From NCBI GenBank assembly GCA_043770095.1, contig JAYVIR010000026.1:44678-108677 (forward strand): a stretch of DNA of 64,000 nt. The letters are read 5' to 3'. The position numbers and the translations under genes are program-made. Source of the stretch: Eubacteriales bacterium. GTDB taxonomy: Bacteria > Bacillota > Clostridia > Peptostreptococcales > Acidaminobacteraceae. This document shows, piece after piece, positions 37,470-56,372 of the stretch (positions are counted from its first letter, which is position 1; every line of letters starts with the position of its first letter). The notes beneath the pieces were generated by a model. The model worked only from the letters and a program-made list of their open reading frames with translations. It made no database searches and was not told the origin of the DNA.

Positions 37470-37928
37470 TTGGTCATTGGTTTTAATAATTCTGGCGTTA
37501 TGGTTAGCATTCTCTGTGTAAGCTTGTTGGCAACTGGCTGTTCAACGCCTAAAAAAGAGCAGGGAAATGGTGTGAGCGTGGGAACAGAAGTATCTCACGA
37601 GCAATCAATTGTGAGTCATAAAGAATCCGAGCAAGATAAAAAAGCACCCAATTACACGATTGATCAGTTTACAGATGCGGTCTTAAACAACGATCAAGCA
37701 CTCGTAAAAAAGATGCTAAAGAGTGGATACATAGACATTAACACAAAAAATTCAGATGGCGATTACCCTCTTGAAGTGTCGCTCATTCTTGAAAATATTG
37801 AAATGGCAGATTTGCTCTTGCAAAATGGCGCAGATGCAAATTTGAAAACGAACTGCGGCAAATCGGTTAAGGAATTGGTGCTCAAAAATGGCTCTCGGGC
37901 TATGAAAGATTTATTCACGGCAAGTTAG
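37470..37928 (+). CDS. Ankyrin-repeat lipoprotein
   Basis: Lipobox LATGCS. Ankyrin-like repeats (DGDYPLEVSLILENIEMADLLLQNGADANLKTNCG). Confidence 0.65.
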   Translation: MVIGFNNSGVMVSILCVSLLATGCSTPKKEQGNGVSVGTEVSHEQSIVSHKESEQDKKAPNYTIDQFTDAVLNNDQALVKKMLKSGYIDINTKNSDGDYPLEVSLILENIEMADLLLQNGADANLKTNCGKSVKELVLKNGSRAMKDLFTAS

Positions 37929-42616: not shown

Positions 42617-44785
42617 GTGTACTTTATGAATAAATCAGAGCAAAATAGCCTCTTAAAAACAAACCCAAAGCGAATTGCGGTAATCACCGGAAGCGATTCC
42701 ACAAAAAATCGACTGGTGCTTCAACTTGAAAAATTACTGGAAGGACATGCCACGATTGAGGGGTATGCTGTCAATTTAGGACTGGTGGGAAAAATAAAAG
42801 CGGATCTGATTGTCTTTTCAAGCGTGTCTCTTCAAAAAGAAGCCACTGCGTGGATTGATCCTAAATGCCCGCAAATCATTGCACGTCGAGCAATTGATAT
42901 CATTCACCTTGATCAGTTATTTTCAATCAGACGAGGTGAGATGGTACTATTAGTCAACGACTCAATGGAGGCGACCTTTGAATCCATTGAGCTTTTGCAA
43001 CTACTGGGGATTGATAATATCAACCTTTTGCCGTGGTGTCCTGAAATGTTTGAAACCGAGCGCAACCACAATATTAATCAATGCCACGTGGCAATCACGC
43101 TTGGAGAATTAGAACTTGTACCGGAATCGATGCTGCATGTGGTCGATTTAGGCCCAAGAATCATCGATTTAAGCACCATTGTAGAAATTTTGCATGAACT
43201 TGATCTACTAGATGAAAAATCTCACTACCTCTCTGCAACCTATCTGGCGACGGTGGTCAAAATGGGCAAAACCATTCATAAAGCGATGGCAGAGCAAGAG
43301 TTGCTCAATGATCGTTTAAAGCAAGTGCTCCATCAAATTCACGATGGCCTATTGGCATATGACGAGCTCGGCATCATTCGCGTGTTTAGTCAAAAGTGTG
43401 AACTGATTTTTGGAAAACGCTCTGAGCGCGTAATTGGCAAGCCGTTGGTGCAAATCATAAAAAATGAGAATCTGATTCAATTTCTCAAAATGTCCATTGA
43501 ATCGGATGAATCCCAAGAACAACTCATTATGATTGAGGCAGGCAATTATCAAGTTCAGCGCTTTACATCGGGTAGAGGAGATTGGACGGTTTGCACCCTC
43601 AGAAGTCTAACAGAGAGTGGTGCCTTAGAGCAGCAAAATCGAAGGCTGCACTTACAAAAGGGGCACATTGCCAAATATGACTTTGAAGACATTCGACATG
43701 AATCAGAAGTCATGAAGGCCGTTGTTCGCACGGCTCAGAAAATTGCCAGAACACCTCTTTCAATTCTTATTTATGGGGAAAGTGGGACTGGAAAAGAGCT
43801 GTTTGCCAGCGCGATTCACAAGGCGTCCAATGTATCGAAGGGTCCCTTTTTAGGGGTCAATTTTAGCGCTCTGCCAGAAGACTTAGTGGAAAGTGAGCTC
43901 TTCGGCTATGAAGAGGGCGCTTTCACAGGGGCAAAAAAAGGCGGCAGACCTGGCCTTTTTGAACAGGCTCACGGCGGGACTCTGTTCCTAGACGAAATTG
44001 GAGATGTTTCTTTGAAAATCCAAGCAAGACTCCTCAGAGTGTTGCAGGAAAAAGAAGTCATGCGCGTTGGCGGGAGCGAAATCATTCCAGTGGATGTGAG
44101 GATCATTGCAGCGACCAATAAGCCACTTATGACACTTTGCGAACAGGGGCAATTTAGAGAGGATTTGTATTACAGACTCAAACGATTGTCGCTTAACACT
44201 CCACCATTAAGGGAACGTCGAGAAGACATTCCGATGCTGTTAAAATTCTTTTTATTGAAAAATGGGTGGCGCCATCCCTTGGAAACTTCAATCAGCGAAG
44301 CCTTGATTCAGGAGCTTCAATCGGCTAATTGGAAGGGCAATGTGAGAGAACTGGAAAGTGTCGTGGAGTACTTGGTAGCGGTTGCAGATGGGGCGATACT
44401 AAATCTGAGTGACTTGCCAACGGATTTTATAGGGGGTGTAAAGGGGTTAAACAAGTTCGCTTCGAAAGTGTTAAATGGGGATGTGCCTATTGAAACCCCC
44501 ATTAAAATAGACAGAGCAGCAGATCTCTTTCACCGCATGTCTGGTAGAGACTATCGGTTTTTGCTCAAACAAATCGATGCTCATAATAAAAAAGGCATTA
44601 GCATCGGCAGAGAAAAACTTTCGCTTGAGGCAAATGAGGCTGGACTTTTACTCACGCAAGATATGGTCAGAGGCAGATTGAAAACCCTTGAACAGCTTGG
44701 CGTTATTGAGGTGACAAAAGGACGAAAAGGACCTGTGCTGACACTTTTGGGGCTTGAACTGCTTACAAAATTGGATAAGAGTTAA
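42617..44785 (+). CDS. Sigma-54-dependent transcriptional activator (PrpR-N-like sensory domain, PAS, AAA+, HTH)
   Basis: AAA+ Walker A GESGTGKE, GAFTGA sigma-54 contact motif (EEGAFTGAKKG), Walker B LFLDEIGD. The N-terminal 200 aa resembles the PrpR N-domain. A PAS-like segment lies around LHQIHDGLLAYDE. The C-terminus has an HTH. Confidence 0.85.
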   Translation: MYFMNKSEQNSLLKTNPKRIAVITGSDSTKNRLVLQLEKLLEGHATIEGYAVNLGLVGKIKADLIVFSSVSLQKEATAWIDPKCPQIIARRAIDIIHLDQLFSIRRGEMVLLVNDSMEATFESIELLQLLGIDNINLLPWCPEMFETERNHNINQCHVAITLGELELVPESMLHVVDLGPRIIDLSTIVEILHELDLLDEKSHYLSATYLATVVKMGKTIHKAMAEQELLNDRLKQVLHQIHDGLLAYDELGIIRVFSQKCELIFGKRSERVIGKPLVQIIKNENLIQFLKMSIESDESQEQLIMIEAGNYQVQRFTSGRGDWTVCTLRSLTESGALEQQNRRLHLQKGHIAKYDFEDIRHESEVMKAVVRTAQKIARTPLSILIYGESGTGKELFASAIHKASNVSKGPFLGVNFSALPEDLVESELFGYEEGAFTGAKKGGRPGLFEQAHGGTLFLDEIGDVSLKIQARLLRVLQEKEVMRVGGSEIIPVDVRIIAATNKPLMTLCEQGQFREDLYYRLKRLSLNTPPLRERREDIPMLLKFFLLKNGWRHPLETSISEALIQELQSANWKGNVRELESVVEYLVAVADGAILNLSDLPTDFIGGVKGLNKFASKVLNGDVPIETPIKIDRAADLFHRMSGRDYRFLLKQIDAHNKKGISIGREKLSLEANEAGLLLTQDMVRGRLKTLEQLGVIEVTKGRKGPVLTLLGLELLTKLDKS

Positions 44786-44865: not shown

Positions 44866-44881
44866 TGGCATAAACCTTGCT
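44866..44881 (+). promoter_or_regulatory. Sigma-54 (-24/-12) promoter TGGCAT-aaacc-TTGCT upstream of the yfcC-type gene
   Basis: GG and GC dinucleotides are exactly 12 nt apart (tGGcataaaccttGCtt). It lies 40 nt upstream of the RBS and 80 nt downstream of the activator gene. Confidence 0.55.
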
Positions 44882-44921: not shown

Positions 44922-46643
44922 ATGTCAGACCAAAAAAAGAAGCAAGATGAAAAACGGTTCCAAATGCCACACACCTACGTCATTATATTTTTCGTTGTAA
45001 TGTTCTGTTGGGCACTCACATTCATGGTTCCAGTCGGTAAATTCGATACGCATGACGTGACGTATACCAACGCTGACGGCAAAGAGAAAACAAAAACAGT
45101 CCTCTTGCCTGAAACCTTCCGTCTTCAATACCCGCTCGACAACCAAAAGTTGGCTGAAGCGCTTAAAACGACAGATGCTGCCAAACTCACGGAAAGCGGC
45201 GTAGACGCAGAGGCGCTTACCGCACTGATGGCAACAGATCCTGCAACGTGGGAATCTGGCGCATTAGACGAAATGGGTCTTTCAGAATCTACCATTCATC
45301 AACTTTATGACACAAAAGTTTACGACACGACAAGCCCTATCAAAAAACAGGCTAAAATATGGGGCACAGATGACTTCTATGGATTCGGCGTATTTAACTA
45401 CATGTTTGAGGGTCTTGTCACAGGTGACAAATGGGGCTCAGCAGTAGGAATCGTTGCCTTCATTCTCGTTATTGGCGGTGCTTTCGGAATCATTATGAGA
45501 ACTGGCGCAATTGACGCCGGCATTTATGAATTCATTACGCGTGTCAAAGGGGCTCAGTTTTTAGTCATACCGGCACTCTTCATCGTATTCTCACTTGGCG
45601 GCGCTATTTTCGGCATGTCGGAGGAATCCATACCGTTTGCGATGATTGTCATACCGTTTGTGATCGCTATGGGCTATGACTCCCTTGTCGGGGTTGCCAT
45701 TACGTTCGTTGCAACACAAGTGGGCAATGCGACTTCTTGGATGAATCCATTTGGGGTTGCCATCGCTCAAGGTATTGCAGGCGTTCCGGTACTTTCAGGG
45801 GCTACTTTTAGAATTATTATGTGGGTTGTTCTCACAACGGCATCTGTTATTTACATCACCATGTATGCCAATAAAATTAAAAAAGACCCAACAAAATCAA
45901 TTGTTTATGATACAGATCAATATTTCAGAGATCACTTAGCTTCTCAAGATCCAGAACACAGAGCGTTTAAATTAGGCCACGGCTTAGTGCTTCTTTGGAT
46001 GCTGTTTGGCGTCATCTGGATCGTATGGGGCGTTACGAGCGAGGGTTATTATATTCCTGAAATTGCTTCTCAGTTCTTTGTTATGGGTCTTGGCGCAGGT
46101 GTGCTTGCGGTCGTATTCAAACTCAACAATATGAGAATCAACGACATTGCCTCTTCATTCCAAAGCGGTGCCGGTGACCTTGTCGGAGCGGCAATGGTAG
46201 TGGGTATGGCAAAAGGCATTTTGTTGGTACTTGGCGGTTCAAGTGCCACAACGCCAACCGTTTTAAATACAATTTTAAGCTCAGTCGGCAGTTCGCTTGC
46301 AGGTCTTCCAAGCGCTGTAACCGCTGTGCTCATGTACACTTTCCAAACTATTTTCAACTTCTTTGTCACTTCTAATTCAGGTCAAGCGGCTCTAACGATG
46401 CCAATCCTTGCCCCTTTATCTGACATCGTAGGCATCAGCAGACAAGTTGCCGTTCTTTGCTACCAATTGGGATCTGGTTTTGCAGATGCGATTGTACCAA
46501 CATCGGCTTCCCTCATGGGCGTTCTCGGTGTGGCAAGAATGGACTGGACGAAATGGGCAAAATTCCAAATCAAAATGCAAGGGTTCTTCTTTGTATTCGG
46601 CAGCGTGTTCATTGTCATAGCGATTATGATTGGCTATAACTAA
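44922..46643 (+). CDS. YfcC/DcuC-type (ion-transporter superfamily) membrane transporter, candidate dipeptide/basic amino-acid carrier
   Basis: 573 aa with 12 or more hydrophobic segments. Two hairpin-like Gly-rich re-entrant motifs (GGAFGIIMRTGA, GGAIFGMSEESIPFAMIV) resemble the YfcC (putative basic amino acid antiporter) family. Confidence 0.5.
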   Translation: MSDQKKKQDEKRFQMPHTYVIIFFVVMFCWALTFMVPVGKFDTHDVTYTNADGKEKTKTVLLPETFRLQYPLDNQKLAEALKTTDAAKLTESGVDAEALTALMATDPATWESGALDEMGLSESTIHQLYDTKVYDTTSPIKKQAKIWGTDDFYGFGVFNYMFEGLVTGDKWGSAVGIVAFILVIGGAFGIIMRTGAIDAGIYEFITRVKGAQFLVIPALFIVFSLGGAIFGMSEESIPFAMIVIPFVIAMGYDSLVGVAITFVATQVGNATSWMNPFGVAIAQGIAGVPVLSGATFRIIMWVVLTTASVIYITMYANKIKKDPTKSIVYDTDQYFRDHLASQDPEHRAFKLGHGLVLLWMLFGVIWIVWGVTSEGYYIPEIASQFFVMGLGAGVLAVVFKLNNMRINDIASSFQSGAGDLVGAAMVVGMAKGILLVLGGSSATTPTVLNTILSSVGSSLAGLPSAVTAVLMYTFQTIFNFFVTSNSGQAALTMPILAPLSDIVGISRQVAVLCYQLGSGFADAIVPTSASLMGVLGVARMDWTKWAKFQIKMQGFFFVFGSVFIVIAIMIGYN

Positions 46644-46683: not shown

Positions 46684-47856
46684 GTGATTTTATTAAAACA
46701 AGTGGAAGTATATGCCCCAGAGAAGATTGGGTGCAGAGATGTTCTGATAGGCGCAGAAAAAATACTGCAAATATCAGAAAATGAGATAGATACTGGTGAC
46801 ATGCCCGTAACGGTAATAGATGGAAAAGGCATGGTATTGGTGCCGGGACTCATTGACGCACACGTTCACATCTGTGGTGGCGGAGGTGAAGGTGGTTACA
46901 AAACGCGTACGCCAGAGCTCAAAATGACGGAAATGATTCAAGCGGGCGTAACGACAGTAGTGGGTTGCCTCGGGACGGACGGGATTACCAGAACCATGGA
47001 AAATCTTGTGGCCAAAGTGTACAGCCTGCGTGAAGAAGGGGTTTCTGCTTGGTGCTACAGCGGTTCTTATCAGGTGCCTGTGAGGACTTTGACGGGAGAC
47101 ATCATGAAAGACATTATGCTCATTGACCCAATCATCGGCATTGGAGAAATTGCGCTTAATGATCACAGATCTTCTTCGGTAACGGTTCAGGAACTGGCTC
47201 GAATCACGTCGGAGGCGAGAGTGGCGGGTATTTTGTCAGGCAAAGCGGGCGTTATCAACTGCCATTTAGGCGATGGCCCCTTTGACTTGGATCAAATTGA
47301 TCAAGCGGTAGAACAGTTTGTCCTGCCAATTGCACAATTTTATCCGACCCATATCAACCGAAATGCAGGTCTTTTTGAAAAAGGGATTGCTCATGCTTTA
47401 AAAGGTGGCATGGTGGATATGACCACATCGACAACCCCTCAGTTTATTGAAGAAGGGGAAGTGCCTGCAGCAGAAGCGCTGTTTCTGATGAGGGCTGCGG
47501 GTGTGCCGTCAAATCGCATCACGTTTACATCGGATGGGCATGGCAGTCTTCCAATGTTCGGCCCGACAGGTGAATTTGAAGGCCTTGGCGTTGGACGACT
47601 CGACAGTCTTCTAGAATCGGTCAGAGAAGCGGTAAAAAGACATAACATGCCGCTAGAAGAAGCCTTAGAACCTGTAACGTCAACGCCTGCCAAGTATTTA
47701 AAACTTCACGGCAAAGGGCAGATTCAGGTAAACAAAGATGCCGATTTGGTGCTTCTTGATGCAAGTAGCCTCAACGTTAAAGGGGTTATTGCCAGAGGAA
47801 AACTCTGTATGCTAGACGGTGTGCTTTGTGTAAGGAATACGGTAGAACTTAACTAA
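46684..47856 (+). CDS. iadA: Isoaspartyl dipeptidase (beta-aspartyl peptidase)
   Basis: Closely colinear with E. coli IadA: LVPGLIDAHVHICGGGGEGGYKTRTPEL, VTTVVGCLGTDGITR, GVSAWCYSGSYQVPVRTLTGD, PTHINRN. Confidence 0.85.
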   Translation: MILLKQVEVYAPEKIGCRDVLIGAEKILQISENEIDTGDMPVTVIDGKGMVLVPGLIDAHVHICGGGGEGGYKTRTPELKMTEMIQAGVTTVVGCLGTDGITRTMENLVAKVYSLREEGVSAWCYSGSYQVPVRTLTGDIMKDIMLIDPIIGIGEIALNDHRSSSVTVQELARITSEARVAGILSGKAGVINCHLGDGPFDLDQIDQAVEQFVLPIAQFYPTHINRNAGLFEKGIAHALKGGMVDMTTSTTPQFIEEGEVPAAEALFLMRAAGVPSNRITFTSDGHGSLPMFGPTGEFEGLGVGRLDSLLESVREAVKRHNMPLEEALEPVTSTPAKYLKLHGKGQIQVNKDADLVLLDASSLNVKGVIARGKLCMLDGVLCVRNTVELN

Positions 47857-47902: not shown

Positions 47903-49582
47903 ATGATGTTTAAATGCTTTTTGAATGTCAGAGAGGAGAAGGGTTCTTATGACCCTTCTTTTTCTTTTGAGAAATTGGAAGAGACGACGGCAAAATTGTT
48001 AAATGTGGTGGGCGAATATGTAACTTCTACAGATGAAATTGATATGGCGATGAAGGAAATGAGCACTTCCGGTATTCAATTGTCGTGCTCGGCAGAAGAA
48101 CAACTCCACAATATACAAAAGATTAAATCGTTTACAGGAAAAATTTACGAAAGTGCGGAGGAAAACCATCAGTCGGTAAGTGCCATTTTAGAAAATTCAG
48201 AAGCGGTTTATCACGGCGCAGTGAGCAAACAAGCTGCCATAAATGATGCCGTCACTGCTTTTGATAAAGTTCAAGAACAGATGGGTGAGGCTTGTCAAAC
48301 GGTAGAAATTCTTAGAACAAATGCCTCTGAAATTTTAAGCATGATGGGAGCGGTTCGAAACATTGCCTCTCAGACAAATTTACTAGCACTTAATGCGTCA
48401 ATTGAAGCGGCAAGGGCAGGGGATAGCGGCCGAGGTTTCGCGGTCGTCGCCTCTGAAGTTCGAAAGTTGTCAGAGGAAACGGAACTTGTGGTAAAGCAAA
48501 TGTCTGCGCTGATCCAACTGGTAGATCAAAGAGCTGGGCAGACGCAATCGACAATGATGCAAACCATCAGCGGTATCAAACATCAGTCGGGACAACTCGA
48601 ACATATCAGCGAAGACGTCAGCGAAATGGTCACTCAAATTGGCGCGACGCTCTTGTCCGTAAAAGATTTAGATCAAAATAACCAAGACCTTGTGGTTTCG
48701 TGCGATGAAGTGGATCGGCTGACAGAGGCCATTACGCAGAGTGTCTCAGGCAATGTGGCGTCTACCAAACAACTCAGTCAAACCATTAAAGAAGAAGCAG
48801 AGTCTTTGAAGCGGCTGGTTCATATTGGCGGACGTTTTGAGCATTTGACAGAGCAGTTTTATGAAATTCTTGAAACGGAAGTAACGCATGATTCTCAAAA
48901 GGGGTTGGTGCTCGTGACTTCTGCCTACCCACCGTATATTATTGCGCAAAAAGATGGTGTGGTTAGCGGCATTGACATCGACTTGGTCAGAGAGGCTTTT
49001 AAAAGAGCAGGCATTGATGTTCGAGTGCATTTGAGCTCTTTTGATCAGTCGCTTCGATTGGTTCAAAAAGGGTTTGCAGATTTGGTGCCAACGTTGTCTA
49101 GAAATGAAGAACGCTCCAAAACCATGAATTTTACGGAGAATTACAGAGAGCCAACTCGGTATGTGTTTGTTGCGTTGAAGCAGTCAAATCTGGAAATAAG
49201 TCGATTTGAAGCATTAAGAACTTGGAGAGTCGGCGTTATGAGGGGTTATGGCTACTGGGAACAATTTGTTAAAGACAACCAGATTCAAAAAGACATCAGC
49301 GAAAAAGAAGAAATCATGTTCAAAAAGCTTTTCAAAGGCCAAATCAATTGTTTGATTATGAATGAATACGCAGCGCGTTATTTTATTGTTTCAAATGGGC
49401 TACAAGAGCAAGTTAAAATGCTGGCATACAGTCACAGCGAGCAAGCGGGTTCAGATACGCGCATTGCCTTTACGAAAAAACGTGACACAGAGGCGCTTTG
49501 CAAACTATTCGATGAAAAAATGGCTCAGATGAGAACGGATGGGACTTTGAAACAGATTGAGGAACGGTATTTGAAGATTTAA
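47903..49582 (+). CDS. Soluble chemoreceptor-like protein: MCP signalling domain fused to a C-terminal family-3 solute-binding domain
   Basis: No TM segment. Canonical MCP hairpin-tip sequence ASQTNLLALNASIEAARAGDSGRGFAVVASEVRKLSEET. The C-terminal about 230 aa is SBP_bac_3-like (LVTSAYPPYIIAQKDGVVSGIDIDLVREAFKRAGIDV...). Confidence 0.7.
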   Translation: MMFKCFLNVREEKGSYDPSFSFEKLEETTAKLLNVVGEYVTSTDEIDMAMKEMSTSGIQLSCSAEEQLHNIQKIKSFTGKIYESAEENHQSVSAILENSEAVYHGAVSKQAAINDAVTAFDKVQEQMGEACQTVEILRTNASEILSMMGAVRNIASQTNLLALNASIEAARAGDSGRGFAVVASEVRKLSEETELVVKQMSALIQLVDQRAGQTQSTMMQTISGIKHQSGQLEHISEDVSEMVTQIGATLLSVKDLDQNNQDLVVSCDEVDRLTEAITQSVSGNVASTKQLSQTIKEEAESLKRLVHIGGRFEHLTEQFYEILETEVTHDSQKGLVLVTSAYPPYIIAQKDGVVSGIDIDLVREAFKRAGIDVRVHLSSFDQSLRLVQKGFADLVPTLSRNEERSKTMNFTENYREPTRYVFVALKQSNLEISRFEALRTWRVGVMRGYGYWEQFVKDNQIQKDISEKEEIMFKKLFKGQINCLIMNEYAARYFIVSNGLQEQVKMLAYSHSEQAGSDTRIAFTKKRDTEALCKLFDEKMAQMRTDGTLKQIEERYLKI

Positions 49583-49596
49583 GGAGGGCGAACAGT

Positions 49597-50970
49597 TTGA
49601 AACCAGTAAAAGTGACGGAAACAGCGTTAAGAGATGGGCACCAATCACTGATTGCGACCCGCCTTCGGACGGATGAAATACTACCCATCTTAGAAAAAAT
49701 GGATCAGGCGGGGTATTATGCCTTAGAAGTTTGGGGTGGCGCTACATTTGACGCCTGCCTGCGCTTTTTAAATGAAGACCCTTGGGAGAGACTGAGAGCC
49801 ATTCGTGGCATTGTAAAAAACACCAAACTGCAAATGCTTCTCAGAGGGCAAAATTTATTAGGCTACAAACATTATGCAGACGATGTGGTGGAAGCCTTTA
49901 TCTTAAAATCGGTTGAAAATGGCATTGACATTATTCGTGTATTTGACGCGCTCAATGACTTAAGAAATTTGGAAGTCTCTATGAAGGCCATTAAAAAATC
50001 TGGGGCTCACTGCCAATGTGCGATCAGCTATACAACCAGTCCTGTGCATACCAAGGACTACTATATAGAACTCTCTAAACAAATGGTGCTCATAGGTGCA
50101 GATTCAATATGCATAAAAGACATGGCTGGAATTTTGACGCCAAACGGGGCTTTTGAATTGGTAAAAGAACTGAAAGAAGCTGTTTTGGTGCCAATTGAAA
50201 TACACACGCACTGCACAAGCGGCATTGCTTCCATGACTTATTTAAAGGCAGTAGAAGCCGGTGTGGACATTATTGACACTGCGATTTCACCATTTTCTGA
50301 GGGCACTTCTCAACCGCCAACGGAGTCGATGGCAATGGTTTTGGACGAAACGGACCGTGGCCCAAGGCTCAATATGGCAATTTTAAGCGAAGTTGCGGAT
50401 TACTTTAAACCCATCAGAGACAAGTATAGAGTCGAAGGCATTTTAAACGCCAAAGTGATGGATGTCGAACCCAACACGCTCACGTATCAAGTGCCGGGCG
50501 GCATGCTCTCAAATTTACTTTCGCAACTTGAGGCTCAAGGCGCAAGCCATCATTATGAAGCGGTTCTAAGGGAAATTCCAAGGGTTAGGGCAGACTTAGG
50601 CTATCCGCCACTGGTCACGCCGCTGAGTCAAATGGTCGGCACGCAAGCGGTTTTTAATATTTTAACTGGCGAGCGTTACAAAATGGTGCCTAAAGAAATC
50701 AAAGAATATGTCAAAGGCCTATATGGGGCATTCCCAGCACCTCTAAATGAAAGCGTCAAGCAGTTCATTCTTGGAGATGAGGCAATCATAACGGTAAGAC
50801 CAGCAGACTTGCTCGAGCCAGAACTTGATAAATACACCCTAGAAATAGGCGACTTGGCAACGTCTTTAGAAGATGTGCTCTCTTATAGTTTGTTCCCACA
50901 GGTGGCTAGAAAGTTCTTTGAGGCGCGTTTAAAAATGTCGGATGTTCACTATATTACTGTAACGATGTAA
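49597..50970 (+). CDS. Oxaloacetate decarboxylase alpha-type carboxyltransferase subunit (no biotinyl domain)
   Basis: TIM-barrel carboxyltransferase: VTETALRDGHQSL, metal ligands in HTHCTSG. 457 aa, so it lacks the C-terminal biotin carrier domain of full-length OadA. TTG start with RBS ggaggg. Confidence 0.8.
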   Translation: MKPVKVTETALRDGHQSLIATRLRTDEILPILEKMDQAGYYALEVWGGATFDACLRFLNEDPWERLRAIRGIVKNTKLQMLLRGQNLLGYKHYADDVVEAFILKSVENGIDIIRVFDALNDLRNLEVSMKAIKKSGAHCQCAISYTTSPVHTKDYYIELSKQMVLIGADSICIKDMAGILTPNGAFELVKELKEAVLVPIEIHTHCTSGIASMTYLKAVEAGVDIIDTAISPFSEGTSQPPTESMAMVLDETDRGPRLNMAILSEVADYFKPIRDKYRVEGILNAKVMDVEPNTLTYQVPGGMLSNLLSQLEAQGASHHYEAVLREIPRVRADLGYPPLVTPLSQMVGTQAVFNILTGERYKMVPKEIKEYVKGLYGAFPAPLNESVKQFILGDEAIITVRPADLLEPELDKYTLEIGDLATSLEDVLSYSLFPQVARKFFEARLKMSDVHYITVTM

Positions 50971-51017
50971 GTTGAATGAGTAGGTCAACTTATAGAGATC
51001 ATAAAGGAAGTGGATAT

Positions 51018-51227
51018 ATGGAAATTTTAAAATGGATTAAGGGGTTATTAGGAAGTAAGGCTGAAGCCGCTACGGTTACAGCGACCACGCCAGAAGTCGC
51101 TGAAAAGTGCTCACTGCCAATGGACGACGAAGAAAAAAATCTGGTTGCGGTCATCACCTCATGCATTGCAGGAAAAGACACGCCAGACGCTCAACTGCAC
51201 ATTCAGCGCATAACGCGTATTGACTAA
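51018..51227 (+). CDS. Small soluble protein resembling the Ala/Thr-rich linker and C-terminal region of OadG-type gamma subunits
   Basis: 69 aa from ATG 51018 (RBS aaggaag). AEAATVTATTPEV linker, then EEKNLVAVITSCIAG, similar to the C-terminal conserved segment of Na+-decarboxylase gamma subunits. Confidence 0.3.
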   Translation: MEILKWIKGLLGSKAEAATVTATTPEVAEKCSLPMDDEEKNLVAVITSCIAGKDTPDAQLHIQRITRID

Positions 51228-51250
51228 AGAAAAAAGGAGTAAAACATAAA

Positions 51251-51625
51251 ATGGAAATGAAAAAATATGTCCTTAAATTGAATGGAAAGGTTTACGAGGT
51301 TGAAATGGGAGAAGTCGGCACGGTTTCAAATACAGGCGCGGTGGATCCTTCTAAAAACGAAATAGTGACACTTTCTCCACTCAAAGCAGTGGAAAGCCCT
51401 GTCGGGGCATACAGAGAGACGGTCATTTCGCCAATGCCGGGGACAATCATCAGTGTGCTTGTCAAAGCGGGTGACATTGTCAAACGCAATCAGGTGTTGG
51501 TTGTCCTTGAAGCCATGAAAATGGAAAATGAAATTGTATCACCAATAGATGGCACGATCCTTTCAATCTCTGCAACCAAAGGGGTTGCCGTTAATGTCAG
51601 CGAAGAACTCGTGAGAATCGGATAG
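51251..51625 (+). CDS. Biotin carboxyl carrier protein (biotinyl domain)
   Basis: EAMKMEN biotinylation motif. 124 aa. Confidence 0.85.
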   Translation: MEMKKYVLKLNGKVYEVEMGEVGTVSNTGAVDPSKNEIVTLSPLKAVESPVGAYRETVISPMPGTIISVLVKAGDIVKRNQVLVVLEAMKMENEIVSPIDGTILSISATKGVAVNVSEELVRIG

Positions 51626-51635
51626 GAGGTAGCTC

Positions 51636-52760
51636 GTGGATATATTAATCAGTGGTATTCTCTCGGTTACCTTTAAGCAAATATTCATGTGGGGTGTCGG
51701 CGGACTGCTCATATACTTAGCCATAAAAAAAGAATACGAACCAGCGCTTCTTCTCCCGATGGGTTTTGGCGCAATTATCGTCAATTTTCCAATGACAGGC
51801 GTACTGACTCAAAACATCGGCGGAAAAGAGATTGAAGGTATTTTAGATTTCCTGTTCACAGGGGGTATAGCAACAGAACTCTTTCCACTGCTGATTTTCA
51901 TTGGTATTGGCGCCATGATTGACTTTGGGCCTTTGCTTCAAAATCCGTTCATGCTTTTATTTGGCGCGGCGGCGCAGTTTGGGATTTTCTTCACAATTTG
52001 CGTGGCAACGCTCATTGGCGGATTTGATATTAGAGAAGCGGCTTCCATTGGCATTATAGGCGCGGCAGATGGTCCGACGTCCATTTTCGTTACCAGTCAG
52101 TTGGCTTACCATCTACTGGGCCCCGTCACAATCGCGGCATATTCTTACATGGCCTTAGTGCCAATCATTCAACCAATTGCCATTAAAATGGTGACGACAA
52201 AAGCAGAACGTCAAATTAGAATGACTTATAAAGCAGAGCGTATTTCCAAGACGACTAAAATTCTATTCCCAATTGTCATCACGGTCATTGCGGGTCTCAT
52301 TGCGCCTGTATCCCTTCCACTCATTGGATTTTTAATGTTTGGAAATTTACTCAGGGAGTGCACTGTATTAGACCGATTGTCAAATGCCGCACAAAATGAG
52401 TTGGTCAACATTGTCACTATTTTGCTTGGCATAACAATTGCCACTAAAATGACAGCAGATGAATTCTTGCAAATGGACACGCTGCTCATTATTTCTTTTG
52501 GCCTTGTAGCGTTTGTATTTGATACGATTGGCGGCGTTTTATTTGCCAAATTCATCAATTTATTCAGAAAAGAAAAATTCAATCCGATGATTGGCGCAGC
52601 CGGTATTTCAGCCTTTCCAATGTCGGCGCGTGTCATTCAGAAGATGGCTCAAAAAGAAGATCCGCAAAACTTTGTACTTATGTATGCGGTAGGTGCGAAT
52701 GTCGCAGGACAGATTGCATCGGTAATCGCGGGCGGATTGGTTTTGGCATTCTTTGCTTAA
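51636..52760 (+). CDS. oadB: Na+-translocating decarboxylase beta subunit
   Basis: 374 aa polytopic membrane protein with the conserved OadB/GcdB/MmdB pattern (GFGAIIVNFPM..., IGAADGPTSIFV..., IGAAGISAFPMSARV). Confidence 0.9.
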   Translation: MDILISGILSVTFKQIFMWGVGGLLIYLAIKKEYEPALLLPMGFGAIIVNFPMTGVLTQNIGGKEIEGILDFLFTGGIATELFPLLIFIGIGAMIDFGPLLQNPFMLLFGAAAQFGIFFTICVATLIGGFDIREAASIGIIGAADGPTSIFVTSQLAYHLLGPVTIAAYSYMALVPIIQPIAIKMVTTKAERQIRMTYKAERISKTTKILFPIVITVIAGLIAPVSLPLIGFLMFGNLLRECTVLDRLSNAAQNELVNIVTILLGITIATKMTADEFLQMDTLLIISFGLVAFVFDTIGGVLFAKFINLFRKEKFNPMIGAAGISAFPMSARVIQKMAQKEDPQNFVLMYAVGANVAGQIASVIAGGLVLAFFA

Positions 52761-52997: not shown

Positions 52998-53060
52998 AAA
53001 ACAGCCGCGTTGTAGATGCACCCAACTCTACAGCTGTTAAAGCGGCTGTTTTTTTGTTTT
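52998..53060 (+). terminator. Compound Rho-independent terminator at the end of the sigma-54 operon
   Basis: aaacagccgc ... gcggctgttttttt with an inner hairpin, then a long T-run. Confidence 0.7.
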
Positions 53061-53222: not shown

Positions 53223-53600
53223 GTGATTATTATCAGCAAAGAGTTTGAAATACAAGGGTGTGTTGAAGTACCAATGAAGTTGTCTGAAGAAGAATTTTGG
53301 GGCAAATTTATTGGGTTTATTGAAGCCAACGAGTGGTCGTTTGGTGGTGGCATTAATGAAATTATTGATGGATATTATATCAAAGCGGATAGTACAAAAG
53401 GCAAATCTGTGATTGCGGATTTACCCCAAAATATGTATGACGGTGTAATAAATGAATTGTTTCAGCATCATTCCTTAGCGGCCTTAATTTTTTTAATAAA
53501 CAATGGTCGCGAACTGGAATTTTCTATTAATGATCAAAAATATTTTATATCTCACAGCGGTTCTAGCAAGGTCGTTTCGCTATGGTATAGAAGAAAATGA
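53223..53600 (+). CDS. Hypothetical cytoplasmic protein (125 aa)
   Basis: ORF only. No recognisable motifs. A weak RBS-like aggtga lies immediately 5' of the start. Confidence 0.3.
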   Translation: MIIISKEFEIQGCVEVPMKLSEEEFWGKFIGFIEANEWSFGGGINEIIDGYYIKADSTKGKSVIADLPQNMYDGVINELFQHHSLAALIFLINNGRELEFSINDQKYFISHSGSSKVVSLWYRRK

Positions 53601-54633: not shown

Positions 54634-54954
54634 ATGGATCAAAATCTCATGAACGTGGACGAATGTCCTGTGAAATATACGCTATCAGTCATTGGCGGCA
54701 AGTGGAAACCGATTATTGTCTATCATTTGTCTGCGGCTGGCGTCATGCGCTACGGCGAAATTAGAAAATCCATGCCAACCATTACGCATAAAATGCTCAG
54801 CACACAGTTAAAAGAGCTTGAAGCCGATGGTTTGGTTCTTAGAACGGAATATCCTCAGGTGCCGCCTAAGGTGGAATATCAGCTAAAAGAAAAGGGCCTT
54901 TCTCTAATGCCTGTGTTCACAGCGATGGGAGCGTGGGGCACGGCCAATAGATGA
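54634..54954 (+). CDS. HxlR-family (DUF24/MarR-like) redox-responsive transcriptional regulator, divergent from azoR
   Basis: CPVKYTLSVIGGKWKPIIVYHL...MRYGEIRKSMPTITHKMLSTQLKELEADGLV is the HxlR signature with an N-terminal conserved Cys. ATG 54634 follows RBS aaaggagag. Confidence 0.8.
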   Translation: MDQNLMNVDECPVKYTLSVIGGKWKPIIVYHLSAAGVMRYGEIRKSMPTITHKMLSTQLKELEADGLVLRTEYPQVPPKVEYQLKEKGLSLMPVFTAMGAWGTANR

Positions 54955-56372
54955 GAATGAGAATTTTGTTAACGGTGCTGTTTTTGAGCTTTTTTCTTGA
55001 AAATACGCTTGTTGCAAATGCAAATGAGCAATCAATGATGTTAAATATCAATGAGAATGCTTCGTCATTTAAGAATGTGTCGACTTTGCAAAAGACGGTT
55101 ACCTACGAAGACAACAGCTTCTTTTTTGTCCGAGAGGTCGATTTCAAAACAACGAATCTTTATACGACAAGTTTTAAAGTGAAGGGAACGAAAGGCACCT
55201 ATTCTTATTTTGATAAAAATAAGAAAATGATAACAAAACCATTGACAAATGGCACTTTGCCTATGACAGACATGATAGTCATTGATACGGATCAATATCA
55301 TATGTTTTTAGGGCAGCCCTACATGTATAAATCTTTAGGTCAGGGCGTCATTCAAGCAACCAATAGCCCGGCGACAATGAAAATTTCAAAACAAAGTGAC
55401 GCATGGGTGGTTACCTATTCTTTCAAACCTCAGAAAACAATTGAAAACGGTCTCCTGTACGGCGTGGGGTCAAGCAAGCTTCTAATCGATGTAAAGAATC
55501 CGAGTACAATCAATGTATGGAAAAATTACGACTTCACTCAAAAAGCAAAGTTAGGCATAGATGGTTATTACTATGAATGTCCTCCAACCTACACACCCTG
55601 CGCAAAGGGTGCCTATTGGAATAGTCCGTCCATGTATTTGATCAATGCAATGGTCAAAAATGGCGGATCGCCTCTTTCAGACATACTCGCAACCTCATAC
55701 TTATCAATAGCGGAAAATAATATCAATCAAGAAGGCTTTATACCATCGCAACCAGAAAGCAAATGGTTAAAAGAGACCTACGACATAGGCAGTGGTTTCT
55801 TTGACACGAGGTTTAATGCGGATATGATTGAAATCTATATGTTAGCCTATCAAAAGTTTGGCATTGAAAGTTACCAAATTGCCTACTTGGAACTTGCCAA
55901 TTATTATTTAAAGCATGGAGAAAATAACCATGTTGAAATGTATCTTTCAAGCGAAAATGCAGACTCAGAGGAGAACTTACCTGGGTGGTTGATCGAAGAT
56001 TATGGAAAAGGTGACAGTCTAATCAATACGCACACTGCGCTCAATCATCAGCTGCAGGCAATTCATGTGTTTTTGAATCTATATCAACTTGAAGGCGAAG
56101 ACCTGTATTTGGATTACGCTTATAAAATGATTCGCGGGATTGAATACACACAGAACCAATGGATTATGCCAGACAGAAACCTTGAATATGCCTACATGCC
56201 AGACGGGCAAATGGGCTATGTGGATTACGAGTACCTCACCTACAATGACTTCTATAAAGTGCAAAAGGATCTTGTTGGCATAACGGGAACGCGCAATGTC
56301 ATTTTTGATATTCTAATGGACAGTAAACGGGAATGGATGAACGCAAACAATATAAGCAATTACAATCAGTAG
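54951..56372 (+). CDS. Secreted protein of unknown function
   Basis: Signal peptide (LLTVLFLSFFLENTLVANA). 473 aa with no recognisable catalytic motif. Overlaps the hxlR stop. Confidence 0.4.
   Translation: MRMRILLTVLFLSFFLENTLVANANEQSMMLNINENASSFKNVSTLQKTVTYEDNSFFFVREVDFKTTNLYTTSFKVKGTKGTYSYFDKNKKMITKPLTNGTLPMTDMIVIDTDQYHMFLGQPYMYKSLGQGVIQATNSPATMKISKQSDAWVVTYSFKPQKTIENGLLYGVGSSKLLIDVKNPSTINVWKNYDFTQKAKLGIDGYYYECPPTYTPCAKGAYWNSPSMYLINAMVKNGGSPLSDILATSYLSIAENNINQEGFIPSQPESKWLKETYDIGSGFFDTRFNADMIEIYMLAYQKFGIESYQIAYLELANYYLKHGENNHVEMYLSSENADSEENLPGWLIEDYGKGDSLINTHTALNHQLQAIHVFLNLYQLEGEDLYLDYAYKMIRGIEYTQNQWIMPDRNLEYAYMPDGQMGYVDYEYLTYNDFYKVQKDLVGITGTRNVIFDILMDSKREWMNANNISNYNQ

What the first reader, a model, noticed from the sequence alone, without database searches (positions are those of the whole stretch)
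47903..49582. Inverted-architecture soluble chemoreceptor: MCP signalling hairpin N-terminal to a family-3 solute-binding domain
Canonical MCPs place ligand-binding domains N-terminal (periplasmic) to the signalling domain. Here a TM-less protein has the conserved MCP tip (EAARAGDSGRGFAVVASEVRKLSEE) followed by a C-terminal amino-acid-type SBP domain. Embedded in the catabolic operon, it may direct chemotaxis toward the substrate, or act as a cytoplasmic sensor of the transported product.
Basis: partly seen in the sequence, partly recalled or inferred. Interest (0 to 1): 0.6.

Follow-up and report, generated by a model that had tools for sequence, protein, structure and literature searches.

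The report
Cytoplasmic chemoreceptor tied to cyanophycin-dipeptide use
This gene encodes a real but rare kind of bacterial chemotaxis receptor whose sensor is an amino-acid-binding domain fused to the receptor's tail inside the cell, and across distant relatives it is switched on together with genes for scavenging cyanophycin-derived aspartyl dipeptides, which gives a specific, testable guess at what it senses.

Summary
ORF 47903-49582 (+, 559 aa) has MCPsignal (res 121-279) followed by SBP_bac_3 (337-558), with no TM segment, no signal peptide and no room for an N-terminal extension. AlphaFold2 gives one ~22-heptad-per-arm hairpin (res 22-326), a 7-residue linker, then an open two-lobe SBP fold.

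It is not a fusion artefact: about 70 clusters at 50% identity share the architecture and the CheA/CheW-binding tip is almost invariant.

(1) The gene lies in a sigma-54 operon: EBP | promoter 44866-44881 | yfcC/dcuC carrier, beta-aspartyl peptidase, receptor, oxaloacetate decarboxylase. (2) In 14 of 24 family loci the receptor sits beside secreted cyanophycinase, IadA, the same EBP or the same carrier, behind sigma-54 promoters. (3) 60% of members carry an N-out/C-in membrane anchor, which this clade has lost.

"Inverted" overstates it, since TlpD/McpA already carry C-terminal sensors.

Best reading: a chemoreceptor that senses imported beta-Asp-Arg/Lys or its products in the cytoplasm. The ligand and the CheA output are inferred, not shown. 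It is a new variant of a known kind, of moderate interest.

The parts
47903..49582 (+). Whole gene: soluble MCP with a C-terminal SBP_bac_3 sensor (559 aa)
   Evidence: ORF; Pfam; identical protein P0001 on public contigs
47966..48415 (+). N-terminal arm of the signalling hairpin (residues 22-171, one continuous helix). It contains the E65-E66 pair at a methylation-like site.
   Evidence: AF2 model; motif analysis
48371..48469 (+). Hairpin tip, the CheA/CheW-binding region (residues 157-189). Almost invariant across the family; the turn is at residue 172.
   Evidence: Alignment A1 invariant columns; conservation profile 0.93; alignment to TM1143 (2CH7)
48419..48880 (+). C-terminal arm of the hairpin (residues 173-326), with E297-E298 (E298 nearly invariant) and invariant E313
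   Evidence: AF2
48881..48901 (+). Seven-residue linker (residues 327-333) joining the end of the C-arm to the first strand of the SBP domain
   Evidence: AF2 secondary structure with a pLDDT dip at 329-331
48902..49579 (+). SBP_bac_3 two-lobe sensor domain (residues 334-559). Pocket residues Y342, F380, S399, R404, Y449, Y451, N487.
   Evidence: Pfam; PDB sequence hits; Foldseek TM 0.85 to GlnPQ-type SBDs; LAO residue mapping
42617..44785 (+). Sigma-54 enhancer-binding protein (PAS + AAA+). Best model is PrdR-like, below its cutoff. 38% identical over full length to the EBP next to the relatives' receptors.
44866..44881 (+). Sigma-54 -24/-12 promoter TGGCATAAACCTTGCT, 41 nt upstream of the carrier gene
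   Evidence: Equivalent elements lie 36-61 nt upstream of the orthologous genes in L004, L005, L006, L091 and L092.
44922..46643 (+). DcuC-family carrier, YfcC type ('putative basic amino acid antiporter'); proposed dipeptide importer
   Evidence: Pfam DcuC; NCBIfam NF008611, 686.6 bits against a cutoff of 500
46684..47856 (+). Beta-aspartyl (isoaspartyl) dipeptidase IadA
   Evidence: TIGR01975, 499.7 bits against a cutoff of 331
49597..50970 (+). Oxaloacetate decarboxylase alpha (carboxyltransferase, no biotin domain). Starts 14 nt after the receptor gene.
   Evidence: NF008985, 792 bits against a cutoff of 718; Pfam
51018..51227 (+). 69-aa ORF called as a gene on the public contig, no family hit; possibly a small decarboxylase subunit (guess)
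51251..51625 (+). Biotin carboxyl carrier protein
51636..52760 (+). Na+-translocating decarboxylase beta subunit
   Evidence: TIGR01109 (subfamily model), 433 bits against a cutoff of 190.6
53030..53049 (+). First terminator-like hairpin downstream of the sigma-54 promoter; likely end of the operon

Best explanation
The gene encodes a genuine chemoreceptor of the long-hairpin (about 44H) type that lives in the cytoplasm. Its only sensor is an SBP_bac_3 (Venus-flytrap) domain, attached by a 7-residue linker to the C-terminal end of the signalling hairpin. It is made from the same sigma-54/EBP-controlled transcript as a YfcC/DcuC-type carrier, a beta-aspartyl dipeptidase and, in this organism, an oxaloacetate decarboxylase Na+ pump. 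Proposed mechanism: beta-Asp-Arg or beta-Asp-Lys is released outside the cell from cyanophycin. In many relatives this is done by a secreted, LysM-anchored cyanophycinase encoded directly upstream of the receptor; here it is presumably done by other organisms or by an unlinked enzyme. The carrier imports the dipeptide. The cytoplasmic SBP domain binds the dipeptide, or less likely its products Arg/Lys/Asp, and closes. That closure displaces the end of the C-terminal helix and shifts the hairpin conformation, changing CheA kinase control at the tip. Swimming is thereby biased toward the source, giving a transport-dependent taxis that exists only when the regulon is induced. SHOWN: the domain architecture, the cytoplasmic location, family conservation, tip invariance, operon and regulon membership, and the recurrent neighbourhood. 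INFERRED: the ligand identity, the carrier's substrate, coupling to CheA/CheW, and the direction of the response.
For: Architecture and location. Family of about 70 clusters at 50% identity with end-to-end matches. Tip Q157-L189 is almost invariant while the rest of the hairpin has diverged to about 30-45% column identity, which implies selection for CheA/CheW binding. The hairpin aligns over residues 45-322 with the T. maritima TM1143 cytoplasmic domain and with Tsr. Arms of about 150 and 154 residues. The tip-to-C-terminus distance is constant across the family (median 383 residues). An N-arm methylation-type motif is strict in 13 of 43 members at the position that aligns with a TM1143 consensus site, and the query keeps E65-E66 there and E297-E298 in the C-arm. 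Operon: sigma-54 promoter 41 nt upstream of the carrier gene, gaps of 40/46/14 nt, no terminator until 53030. Neighbour identities pass curated NCBIfam cutoffs: IadA, YfcC and OadA on equivalog models, OadB on a subfamily model, and the relatives' S51 proteins on the cyanophycinase equivalog. Recurrence: 14 of 24 distinct family loci hold CphE, IadA, the EBP or the YfcC carrier within the available flank, and 9 hold cyanophycinase, which occurs in only about 3% of complete genomes (PMC9974463). Sigma-54 promoters precede the CphE-receptor pair or the receptor itself in L004, L005, L006, L091, L092, L101 and L104. Pocket: the carboxylate clamp R404 (invariant) and S399 and the aromatic sandwich Y342 and F/W380 are kept, while the alpha-ammonium Asp is Asn in 32 of 43 members, including all six with a cyanophycin context. 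That fits a ligand whose alpha-amine is acylated. Precedent for signalling from a C-terminal sensor: TlpD.
Against: The 64-kb window has no cheA, cheW, cheY or flagellar genes, and the rest of the genome could not be inspected. The window itself has no cyanophycinase. In the query the methylation motif is degenerate (SCSAEEQLHN), and the second C-arm site seen in TM1143 is not conserved. Ten of 24 loci show no linked catabolic genes, although several are short contigs. The Asn/Asp pocket position does not cleanly separate contexts: Asp/Glu-type members in L109 and L110 also sit next to IadA/EBP or DcuC carriers. The closest solved SBPs bind free Arg, Gln or Lys, so a free amino acid ligand is not excluded. 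The YfcC-type carrier has no experimentally known substrate; that statement rests on the name of the NCBIfam model ('putative').
Confidence: 0.55

Rival explanations
1. It is a chemoreceptor wired as above, but the SBP domain senses a free amino acid (Arg, Lys, Asp, Gln) or another cytoplasmic metabolite, so it reports general amino-acid status and not the dipeptide.
For: The closest solved homologues bind Arg, Gln, Lys or Orn. The carboxylate-binding Arg and the aromatic sandwich are conserved. IadA would quickly turn the dipeptide into Asp plus Arg/Lys. Asp/Glu-type pocket variants exist in the family.
Against: The canonical alpha-ammonium Asp is replaced by Asn in three-quarters of members. 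The lobe-2 S-T-Q motif is replaced by a conserved Y-x-Y. The Asp that binds the cationic side chain in LAO (D11) has no counterpart. The tight linkage to cyanophycinase, IadA and the carrier, and not to Arg or Asp catabolic genes, points to the pathway-specific intermediate.
Confidence: 0.22
2. It is not a chemotaxis input. The MCP-like hairpin has been recruited as a scaffold that regulates the adjacent sigma-54 activator or the carrier, for example by sequestering the EBP until ligand binds, as the chemoreceptor-like Tls sequesters FlhDC in E. coli.
For: The gene is adjacent to the same EBP family in many loci. There is a published precedent for an MCP-like protein with a transcriptional output (PMC12623472). 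No che genes are seen nearby.
Against: The tip is almost invariant and canonical across a family that has diverged to 26% identity, which is hard to explain without CheA/CheW as partners. The hairpin length is held constant. The EBP has its own conserved N-terminal region of about 330 residues, including a PAS domain, that can act as its sensor. Some family loci have CphE or carriers but no EBP nearby (L091, L110).
Confidence: 0.08
3. The SBP domain does not bind a small molecule. It is a docking module for the cytoplasmic face of the carrier or another protein, so the receptor reports transport flux.
For: In 60% of members an N-terminal anchor places the top of the hairpin, and therefore the SBP domain, directly under the membrane. 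The gene is recurrently adjacent to the carrier gene.
Against: The ligand-clamp residues R404, S399, Y342 and F/W380 are invariant or nearly so, which is typical of a working binding cleft. The soluble members, including the query, keep the same pocket and the same neighbourhood.
Confidence: 0.07
4. The SBP domain is extracytoplasmic (a cryptic export signal), or the ORF is an assembly or fusion artefact.
For: SBP_bac_3 domains are normally exported. Most family members have an N-terminal hydrophobic segment.
Against: The query has no hydrophobic segment and no room for one. In the relatives the segment starts at residues 1-6, has about 0.2 K/R before it and 4.3 K/R after it, and is about 20 residues long. 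That is the signature of an N-out/C-in anchor, the opposite of the true signal peptides on the neighbouring cyanophycinases. The identical protein occurs on independent contigs, and the fusion is kept in about 70 clusters and in 23 of the 24 loci held, with L107 ordered differently.
Confidence: 0.02

Closest known systems
TlpD (Helicobacter pylori) and McpA (Salmonella): soluble chemoreceptors with a C-terminal CZB sensor
   Same: Cytoplasmic MCP. The sensor domain follows the MA hairpin in sequence and so sits at the end of the bundle opposite the kinase-control tip. No HAMP domain. The nearest non-family relatives of the query's hairpin are Clostridia proteins of about 490 aa with MCPsignal plus CZB (PF13682).
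   Different: The sensor here is a bilobed SBP_bac_3 flytrap of about 225 residues, not a small zinc-binding four-helix CZB domain (no PF13682 hit). The hairpin is much longer, about 22 heptads per arm. The gene is operon-linked to a catabolic pathway. Most family members have an N-terminal membrane anchor.
Thermotoga maritima TM1143 and Firmicute 44H-class MCP signalling domains
   Same: Best solved match over residues 45-322 (2CH7/3JA6, E about 2e-16). Near-identical tip. Arm length close to 22 heptads.
   Different: Those receptors are transmembrane with an N-terminal extracellular sensor and a HAMP domain. Here nothing but about 21 disordered residues precedes the hairpin.
Amino-acid ABC-transporter binding proteins (LAO/HisJ, ArtJ/ArgBP, GlnH, GlnPQ SBDs)
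   Same: Same fold (Foldseek TM up to 0.85), 20-26% identity, conserved carboxylate-binding Arg and aromatic sandwich.
   Different: Not exported, not next to ABC permease or ATPase genes, fused to a signalling hairpin. The alpha-ammonium Asp is replaced by Asn, and the lobe-2 S-T-Q motif by Y-x-Y.
BvgS-type sensor kinases with SBP_bac_3 (Venus-flytrap) sensor domains
   Same: An SBP_bac_3 domain is used as the covalently attached sensor of a signal-transduction protein (PMC5829827; PMC12358799).
   Different: There the flytraps are periplasmic and N-terminal to a histidine kinase. Here the flytrap is cytoplasmic and C-terminal to an MCP hairpin.
Cyanophycin utilisation / scavenging clusters (cyanophycinase + isoaspartyl dipeptidase + transporter)
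   Same: The relatives' loci hold secreted cyanophycinase, IadA and a transporter, as described for scavengers (PMC10206079). The window holds IadA and the transporter.
   Different: The papers read do not mention a chemoreceptor or a sigma-54 EBP as part of such clusters. The window's version lacks cyanophycinase and adds an oxaloacetate decarboxylase pump.

Membership tests
Methyl-accepting chemotaxis proteins (PF00015 MCPsignal) | MCPsignal domain above Pfam's gathering threshold | tested here: met
   105.7 bits against a cutoff of 34.6, residues 121-279
Methyl-accepting chemotaxis proteins (PF00015 MCPsignal) | Canonical, conserved hairpin tip (the CheA/CheW interaction region) | tested here: met
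   QTNLLALNASIEAARAGxxGRGFAVVAxEVRKL is invariant or nearly so in 43 family members and nearly identical to TM1143 and Tsr
Methyl-accepting chemotaxis proteins (PF00015 MCPsignal) | Long antiparallel coiled-coil hairpin with arms of equal length (heptad class) | tested here: met
   AF2 gives helices 22-171 and 173-326, about 21.5 and 22 heptads.
Methyl-accepting chemotaxis proteins (PF00015 MCPsignal) | Methylation-site consensus [ASTG][ASTG]xx[EQ][EQ]xx[ASTG][ASTG] | tested here: inconclusive
   Strict motif in 13 of 43 members at reference position 65. The query has SCSAEEQLHN, with the EE pair present and the flanks degenerate. C-arm E297-E298 is conserved, but the TM1143-aligned C-arm site is not.
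Methyl-accepting chemotaxis proteins (PF00015 MCPsignal) | Partner genes cheA/cheW (and cheR/cheB) in the genome; physical coupling to CheA | not testable with these tools
   No che or fla genes in the 64-kb window.
Transport-type solute-binding proteins, family 3 (PF00497) | SBP_bac_3 domain and two-lobe fold | tested here: met
   80.7 bits against a cutoff of 26.4; Foldseek E 2.5e-17, TM 0.85 to 4OEN
Transport-type solute-binding proteins, family 3 (PF00497) | Export signal or lipoprotein signal (extracytoplasmic location) | tested here: not met
   No signal peptide or TM segment. The domain is C-terminal to a cytoplasmic hairpin.
Transport-type solute-binding proteins, family 3 (PF00497) | Encoded with ABC permease and ATPase genes | tested here: not met
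   The operon has a secondary carrier (YfcC/DcuC) and no ABC components
Transport-type solute-binding proteins, family 3 (PF00497) | Canonical alpha-amino-acid clamp (LAO R77 and D161 equivalents) | tested here: inconclusive
   The R77 equivalent R404 is invariant. The D161 equivalent is N487, with Asn in 32, Glu in 6 and Asp in 5 of 43 members.
TlpD-like CZB cytoplasmic chemoreceptors | Soluble MCP with the sensor C-terminal to the MA domain | tested here: met
TlpD-like CZB cytoplasmic chemoreceptors | CZB (PF13682) zinc-binding domain | tested here: not met
   No PF13682 hit at E up to 1. It works like this class but is not a member.
Cyanophycin utilisation locus | Cyanophycinase gene (CphB/CphE/CphI) | tested here: not met
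   tblastn with four relatives' cyanophycinases finds nothing in the window. The feature is met in relatives L004, L005, L006, L091, L092, L095, L101, L102 and L104; the three tested against TIGR02069 (L004, L005, L006) score 159-173 bits against a cutoff of 126.6.
Cyanophycin utilisation locus | Isoaspartyl dipeptidase gene | tested here: met
   TIGR01975, 499.7 bits against a cutoff of 331
Cyanophycin utilisation locus | Linked transporter | tested here: met
   YfcC-type DcuC-family carrier, NF008611, 686.6 bits against a cutoff of 500. Its substrate is unknown.

The most novel reading that the evidence does not exclude
The family is a dedicated, sigma-54-induced cytoplasmic chemoreceptor for beta-Asp-Arg/Lys. 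It would be the first receptor that guides bacteria to cyanophycin, an insoluble storage polymer, by sensing the imported breakdown dipeptide with an internalised solute-binding domain. A more radical version the data do not exclude is that the MCP hairpin does not talk to CheA at all but gates the neighbouring sigma-54 activator or the carrier.
Probability: 0.4. Interest if true: 0.72.

Novelty: new variant of a known kind. Interest (0 to 1): 0.55.

Why it matters
Most chemoreceptors have no known ligand, and cytoplasmic receptors are the least understood. Here comparative genomics gives a narrow, testable ligand hypothesis (beta-Asp-Arg or beta-Asp-Lys) for a whole receptor family. It also gives a physiological rationale: locating insoluble cyanophycin granules, whose degradation needs a cell-bound secreted enzyme. 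It adds a chemotaxis and sigma-54 regulatory layer to cyanophycin-scavenging clusters, which have so far been described as enzyme plus transporter. Mechanistically, a bilobed flytrap attached by 7 residues to the C-terminal helix of a 44H hairpin is a clean system for asking how domain closure is converted into kinase control, and it would complement the recent TlpD structures. Finally, it shows an SBP fold working inside the cell as a sensor, which could be useful for biosensor design.

Tried and rejected
(1) The genome-contig scan with the full-length family alignment was wasted. The tool chose the universal MCP tip as its pattern and returned 80 generic MCPs, so no named genomes carrying the family were obtained. 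I repeated the idea on metagenome contigs with an SBP-only alignment, which worked.

(2) The Foldseek afdb50 library was not available, so no UniProt names or organisms could be obtained for structural neighbours.

(3) The Collins/Lacal/Ottemann review on cytoplasmic chemoreceptors (PMC4248653) is not held. Statements about receptor topology classes therefore rest on my own knowledge and on the TlpD papers.

(4) Literature searches for chemoreceptor plus cyanophycin and for MCPsignal plus SBP_bac_3 found nothing relevant. That shows absence only within the library searched.

(5) I tested whether the Asn-versus-Asp pocket position separates cyanophycin-linked members from unlinked ones. It does not do so cleanly.

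(6) A cryptic TM segment, signal peptide or upstream start in the query is rejected. Export of the relatives through their N-terminal hydrophobic segment is rejected on charge distribution.

(7) HMMER's indels against TM1143 (+7 and +10 residues) suggested a non-44H length. I regard these as unreliable in low-similarity coiled coil and rely on the AF2 helix lengths, so the class assignment is approximate.

(8) Che genes were sought in the window and in the held flanks. None was found, apart from one extra MCP gene in L091.
Full report
**1. The observation.**
The window has an ORF at exactly 47903..49582 (+) encoding 559 residues. Pfam places MCPsignal at residues 121-279 (E 3.2e-30, 105.7 bits, cutoff 34.6) and SBP_bac_3 at 337-558 (E 1e-22, 80.7 bits, cutoff 26.4). 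NCBIfam agrees, with MCP models over 30-319 and Lys/Arg/Orn, cystine and His binding-protein models over about 335-558, none reaching an equivalog cutoff. The quoted tip sequence is present at residues 168-192.

The highest Kyte-Doolittle 19-residue average anywhere in the protein is 0.85, well below TM values. The N-terminus (MMFKCFLNVREEKGSY) is not signal-peptide-like. An in-frame stop lies one codon before the ATG, and only 46 nt separate the gene from the previous one.

**2. Anatomy.**
An AlphaFold2 model built on a 43-member family alignment is confident (mean pLDDT 86). It shows:
- residues 1-19 disordered;
- one continuous helix 22-171, a turn at 172, then a second helix 173-326;
- a 7-residue linker (327-333);
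- an alpha/beta two-lobe domain, 334-559.

The arms are therefore about 150 and 154 residues, or about 22 heptads each. This is the length of the 44H class typical of Firmicutes and Thermotoga (class lengths are from my own knowledge). Consistently, the best solved match is the T. maritima TM1143 cytoplasmic domain, 2CH7/3JA6, over residues 45-322. There is no HAMP domain and no N-terminal sensor.

The C-terminal domain superposes on GlnPQ-type substrate-binding domains, ArgBP, LAO and the ancestral Gln/Arg binder, with TM up to 0.85. It fits open or apo forms best.

Because the hairpin folds back on itself, the C-terminal domain sits at the end of the bundle opposite the kinase-control tip. 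That is where a canonical receptor's HAMP and sensor are. The order is inverted in sequence, not in geometry.

**3. It is a conserved family, not an artefact.**
The identical protein occurs on independent public contigs. A word-indexed search found 48 clusters at 90% identity with both domains and about 90-98% coverage, down to 29% identity. An exhaustive HMMER scan of 1.84 billion 50%-identity representatives found 81 hits at E<=1e-30, of which about 70 match end to end in one stretch.

In the alignment the tip (Q157-L189) is almost invariant (mean column conservation 0.93). The rest of the hairpin is at 0.3-0.45 and the SBP core at 0.5-0.64. The distance from the tip to the C-terminus is nearly constant, with a median of 383 residues. 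Such selection on the tip and on arm length is what is expected if the protein still docks with CheA/CheW in an array.

A methylation-type motif is strictly present in 13 of 43 members (for example TAYSEEQSAG) at the position that aligns with a consensus site of TM1143. The query has SCSAEEQLHN there and a conserved E297-E298 in the other arm. I rate adaptation sites as inconclusive.

**4. A twist on 'TM-less'.**
Sixty of 100 family members begin with a hydrophobic helix of about 20 residues starting at residue 1-6. It has on average 0.2 K/R before it and 4.3 K/R in the 15 residues after it. That is the opposite of a Sec signal peptide. The neighbouring cyanophycinases show the classic pattern of K/R, hydrophobic core, then an A-x-A-like site.

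By the positive-inside rule this segment is an N-out/C-in anchor. Hairpin and SBP are cytoplasmic but tethered, which puts the SBP domain just under the membrane. The spacing between anchor and hairpin (about 20-40 residues) is too short for a HAMP domain.

The query's clade has lost the anchor. Its relatives P0002, P0003 and P0012 still keep the K/R-rich stretch. So the protein is truly soluble, but it is a soluble member of a family that is mostly membrane-anchored. The sensor is cytoplasmic in both forms.

**5. The sensor pocket.**
I mapped the family onto LAO.

| LAO residue | Role in LAO | Query / family equivalent |
|---|---|---|
| R77 | alpha-carboxylate clamp | R404, invariant |
| S72 | alpha-carboxylate clamp | S399, 40 of 43 |
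| Y14 | aromatic sandwich | Y342, invariant |
| F52 | aromatic sandwich | F or W at 380 |
| D161 | alpha-ammonium binder | N487: Asn 32, Glu 6, Asp 5 of 43 |
| S120-T121-Q122 | lobe-2 motif | conserved Y449-x-Y451 |
| D11 | cationic side-chain binder | no counterpart |

The cleft therefore looks functional and amino-acid-like but not canonical. A ligand with a free carboxylate and an acylated (uncharged) alpha-nitrogen, as in the Arg or Lys moiety of beta-Asp-Arg/Lys, would fit. This is an inference, not a result. All six members with a cyanophycin context have Asn, but Asp/Glu-type members also sit next to IadA/EBP or DcuC carriers. The position is not a clean discriminator.

**6. The operon.**
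- Upstream lies a sigma-54 enhancer-binding protein (42617-44785; PAS + AAA+; best model PrdR-like, below cutoff).
- In the intergenic region after it, 41 nt before the next start codon, is TGGCATAAACCTTGCT (44866-44881), a one-mismatch -24/-12 element.
- Then follow, with gaps of 40, 46 and 14 nt:
  - a DcuC-family carrier of the YfcC type (NF008611, 687 bits against a cutoff of 500);
  - beta-aspartyl dipeptidase (TIGR01975, 500 against 331);
  - the receptor;
  - oxaloacetate decarboxylase alpha (NF008985, 792 against 718);
  - a 69-aa ORF;
  - a biotin carrier protein;
  - the Na+-pumping beta subunit (TIGR01109, a subfamily model, 433 against 191).
- The first terminator-like hairpin is at 53030.

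The cluster reads as: import a beta-aspartyl dipeptide, split it, and draw energy from the aspartate branch through oxaloacetate. The transaminase step is not encoded here.

**7. The neighbourhood recurs across the family.**
I examined contexts of homologues only 26-53% identical.

| Locus (protein) | Gene order around the receptor |
|---|---|
| L005 (P0045), L092/93 (P0043) | secreted LysM-cyanophycinase, receptor, IadA, EBP, YfcC |
| L006/7 (P0023, a Clostridia MAG) | cyanophycinase, receptor; EBP, YfcC and M20 divergent |
| L004 (P0025) | receptor, EBP, YfcC, cyanophycinase, M20 |
| L091 (P0013) | MCP, cyanophycinase, receptor |
| L109 (P0034) | receptor, IadA, EBP |
| L110 (P0032) | receptor, two DcuC/YfcC carriers |

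The S51 proteins tested (from L004, L005 and L006) pass the cyanophycinase equivalog model (159-173 bits against a cutoff of 126.6).

A metagenome scan with an SBP-only alignment added 14 loci. Over 24 distinct loci, 14 have at least one of cyanophycinase, IadA, EBP or YfcC within the held flank, and 9 have cyanophycinase. Several of the negatives are contigs of 3-7 kb. Cyanophycinase is present in only about 3% of complete genomes (PMC9974463).

Sigma-54 elements lie 36-61 nt upstream of the carrier gene in the window, L004, L005, L006 and L092. They also lie upstream of the cyanophycinase-receptor pair (L005, L006, L091, L092, L101, L104) or of the receptor itself (L004).

The receptor is thus a regular member of a sigma-54/EBP regulon for cyanophycin or beta-aspartyl-dipeptide scavenging. 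The window's version lacks cyanophycinase and adds the decarboxylase pump.

**8. Organism.**
By lysyl-tRNA synthetase the closest named relatives are Irregularibacter muris (84%) and Fusibacter (78%). The window also carries SLH, LysM and G5 wall proteins and a pur operon. It is an uncultured anaerobic member of the Clostridia. No che or flagellar gene lies in the 64 kb.

**9. Mechanism proposed.**
See Best explanation. The shown steps are architecture, location, conservation and co-regulation. The inferred steps are:
- the carrier's substrate;
- the ligand;
- closure of the flytrap pulling on the C-terminal helix through the 7-residue linker (invariant E313 and nearly invariant E298 lie near this junction);
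- propagation to the tip, as documented for TlpD, where small changes at a C-terminal sensor reach the kinase interface 140 A away (bioRxiv 10.64898/2026.01.16.699579).

Because the sensor is cytoplasmic, the response would depend on uptake. Because the gene is sigma-54-controlled, it would exist only in induced cells.

**10. Rivals.**
- The ligand is a free amino acid (0.22).
- The output is non-chemotactic, acting on the EBP or carrier, with the FlhDC-sequestering Tls as precedent (PMC12623472). I rate this 0.08 because the invariant tip argues against it.
- The SBP is a docking module and not a small-molecule sensor (0.07).
- Export or artefact (0.02).

**11. Comparison and novelty.**
It works like the TlpD/McpA class (soluble, sensor after the MA domain) but fails that family's defining CZB test. 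Its hairpin belongs with 44H-type MCPs. Its sensor belongs structurally to family-3 SBPs but fails the export and ABC-linkage tests, so it is not a transport SBP.

SBP_bac_3 flytraps are known as periplasmic sensors of BvgS-type kinases. I found no description of one as a cytoplasmic chemoreceptor sensor, and no chemoreceptor in published cyanophycin clusters, within the limits of the library.

I classify it as a new variant of a known kind. Interest is moderate (0.55). The architecture alone is a modest surprise given the known diversity of chemoreceptor sensors. The conserved link to cyanophycin scavenging and the sharp ligand hypothesis make it worth an experiment.

Noticed in passing
Relatives P0004-P0034, P0134-P0182 (e.g. 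L004 10001-10060, L006 10001-10063): Sixty of 100 family members begin with a hydrophobic helix of about 20 residues followed by a K/R cluster, which is an N-out/C-in anchor. The query's clade and the P0037-47 clade lack it. P0002, P0003 and P0012 keep only the K/R remnant, which suggests the anchor was lost secondarily.
   Followed up: yes
window 49597-52760: The oxaloacetate decarboxylase in the sigma-54 operon is split. The alpha subunit (457 aa) has the carboxyltransferase but no biotin domain. A separate 124-aa biotin carrier and an unannotated 69-aa ORF (51018-51227, no Pfam hit) lie between alpha and beta. None of the relatives' loci has OadA or OadB next to the receptor.
   Followed up: partly
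L091 7177-8445: A second gene with MCPsignal only (422 aa) lies directly upstream of the cyanophycinase-receptor pair in this relative.
   Followed up: no
one search hits P0053, P0061, P0066, P0070, P0075, P0083, P0091, P0110, P0117: The closest non-family relatives of the hairpin are Clostridia proteins of about 490 aa with MCPsignal plus CZB (PF13682). The family may have arisen from a TlpD-like receptor by swapping the C-terminal sensor.
   Followed up: no
P0164, P0189, P0199, P0254 (653-674 aa): Longer variants have the same MCPsignal plus SBP_bac_3 core but about 100-130 extra N-terminal residues, including hydrophobic segments. No extra Pfam domain was detected.
   Followed up: partly
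L107 10096-11806: In this metagenome locus the SBP-like match (10096-10485) lies upstream of the hairpin match (10967-11806), unlike all other loci. It could be two genes or a rearrangement.
   Followed up: no
window 427-1299: A free SBP_bac_3 protein (291 aa) with an N-terminal extension typical of exported binding proteins. It is only 29% identical to the receptor's SBP domain, so the fused domain is not a recent copy of it.
   Followed up: partly
window 28287-29534, 54951-56369, 4297-5010, 37470-37925, 53223-53597: Five ORFs of 125-473 aa have no Pfam family at E<=1e-5. Of the two that lie within the public locus L001, 54951-56369 (473 aa) is called as a gene of the same length there, overlaps the next gene by 40 nt and sits between an HxlR regulator and a ROK-family gene; 53223-53597 is also called there.
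   Followed up: no
window 35204-37147 (-): A 647-aa surface protein with SLH, Glucodextran_B and cadherin-like domains, consistent with an S-layer-bearing Firmicute.
   Followed up: no
window 38017-40137: An unusually long (707 aa) SPFH/Band 7 protein, followed on the opposite strand by a chromate-transporter half-protein and a PLP-dependent enzyme.
   Followed up: no
L008-L010 (P0031 clade): The most widely sampled family member (43 contigs) has no cyanophycin genes within 10 kb. An Opp-type peptide ABC transporter starts about 2.7 kb downstream, and this member has Ala at the LAO-S72 position. It may have a different ligand.
   Followed up: no
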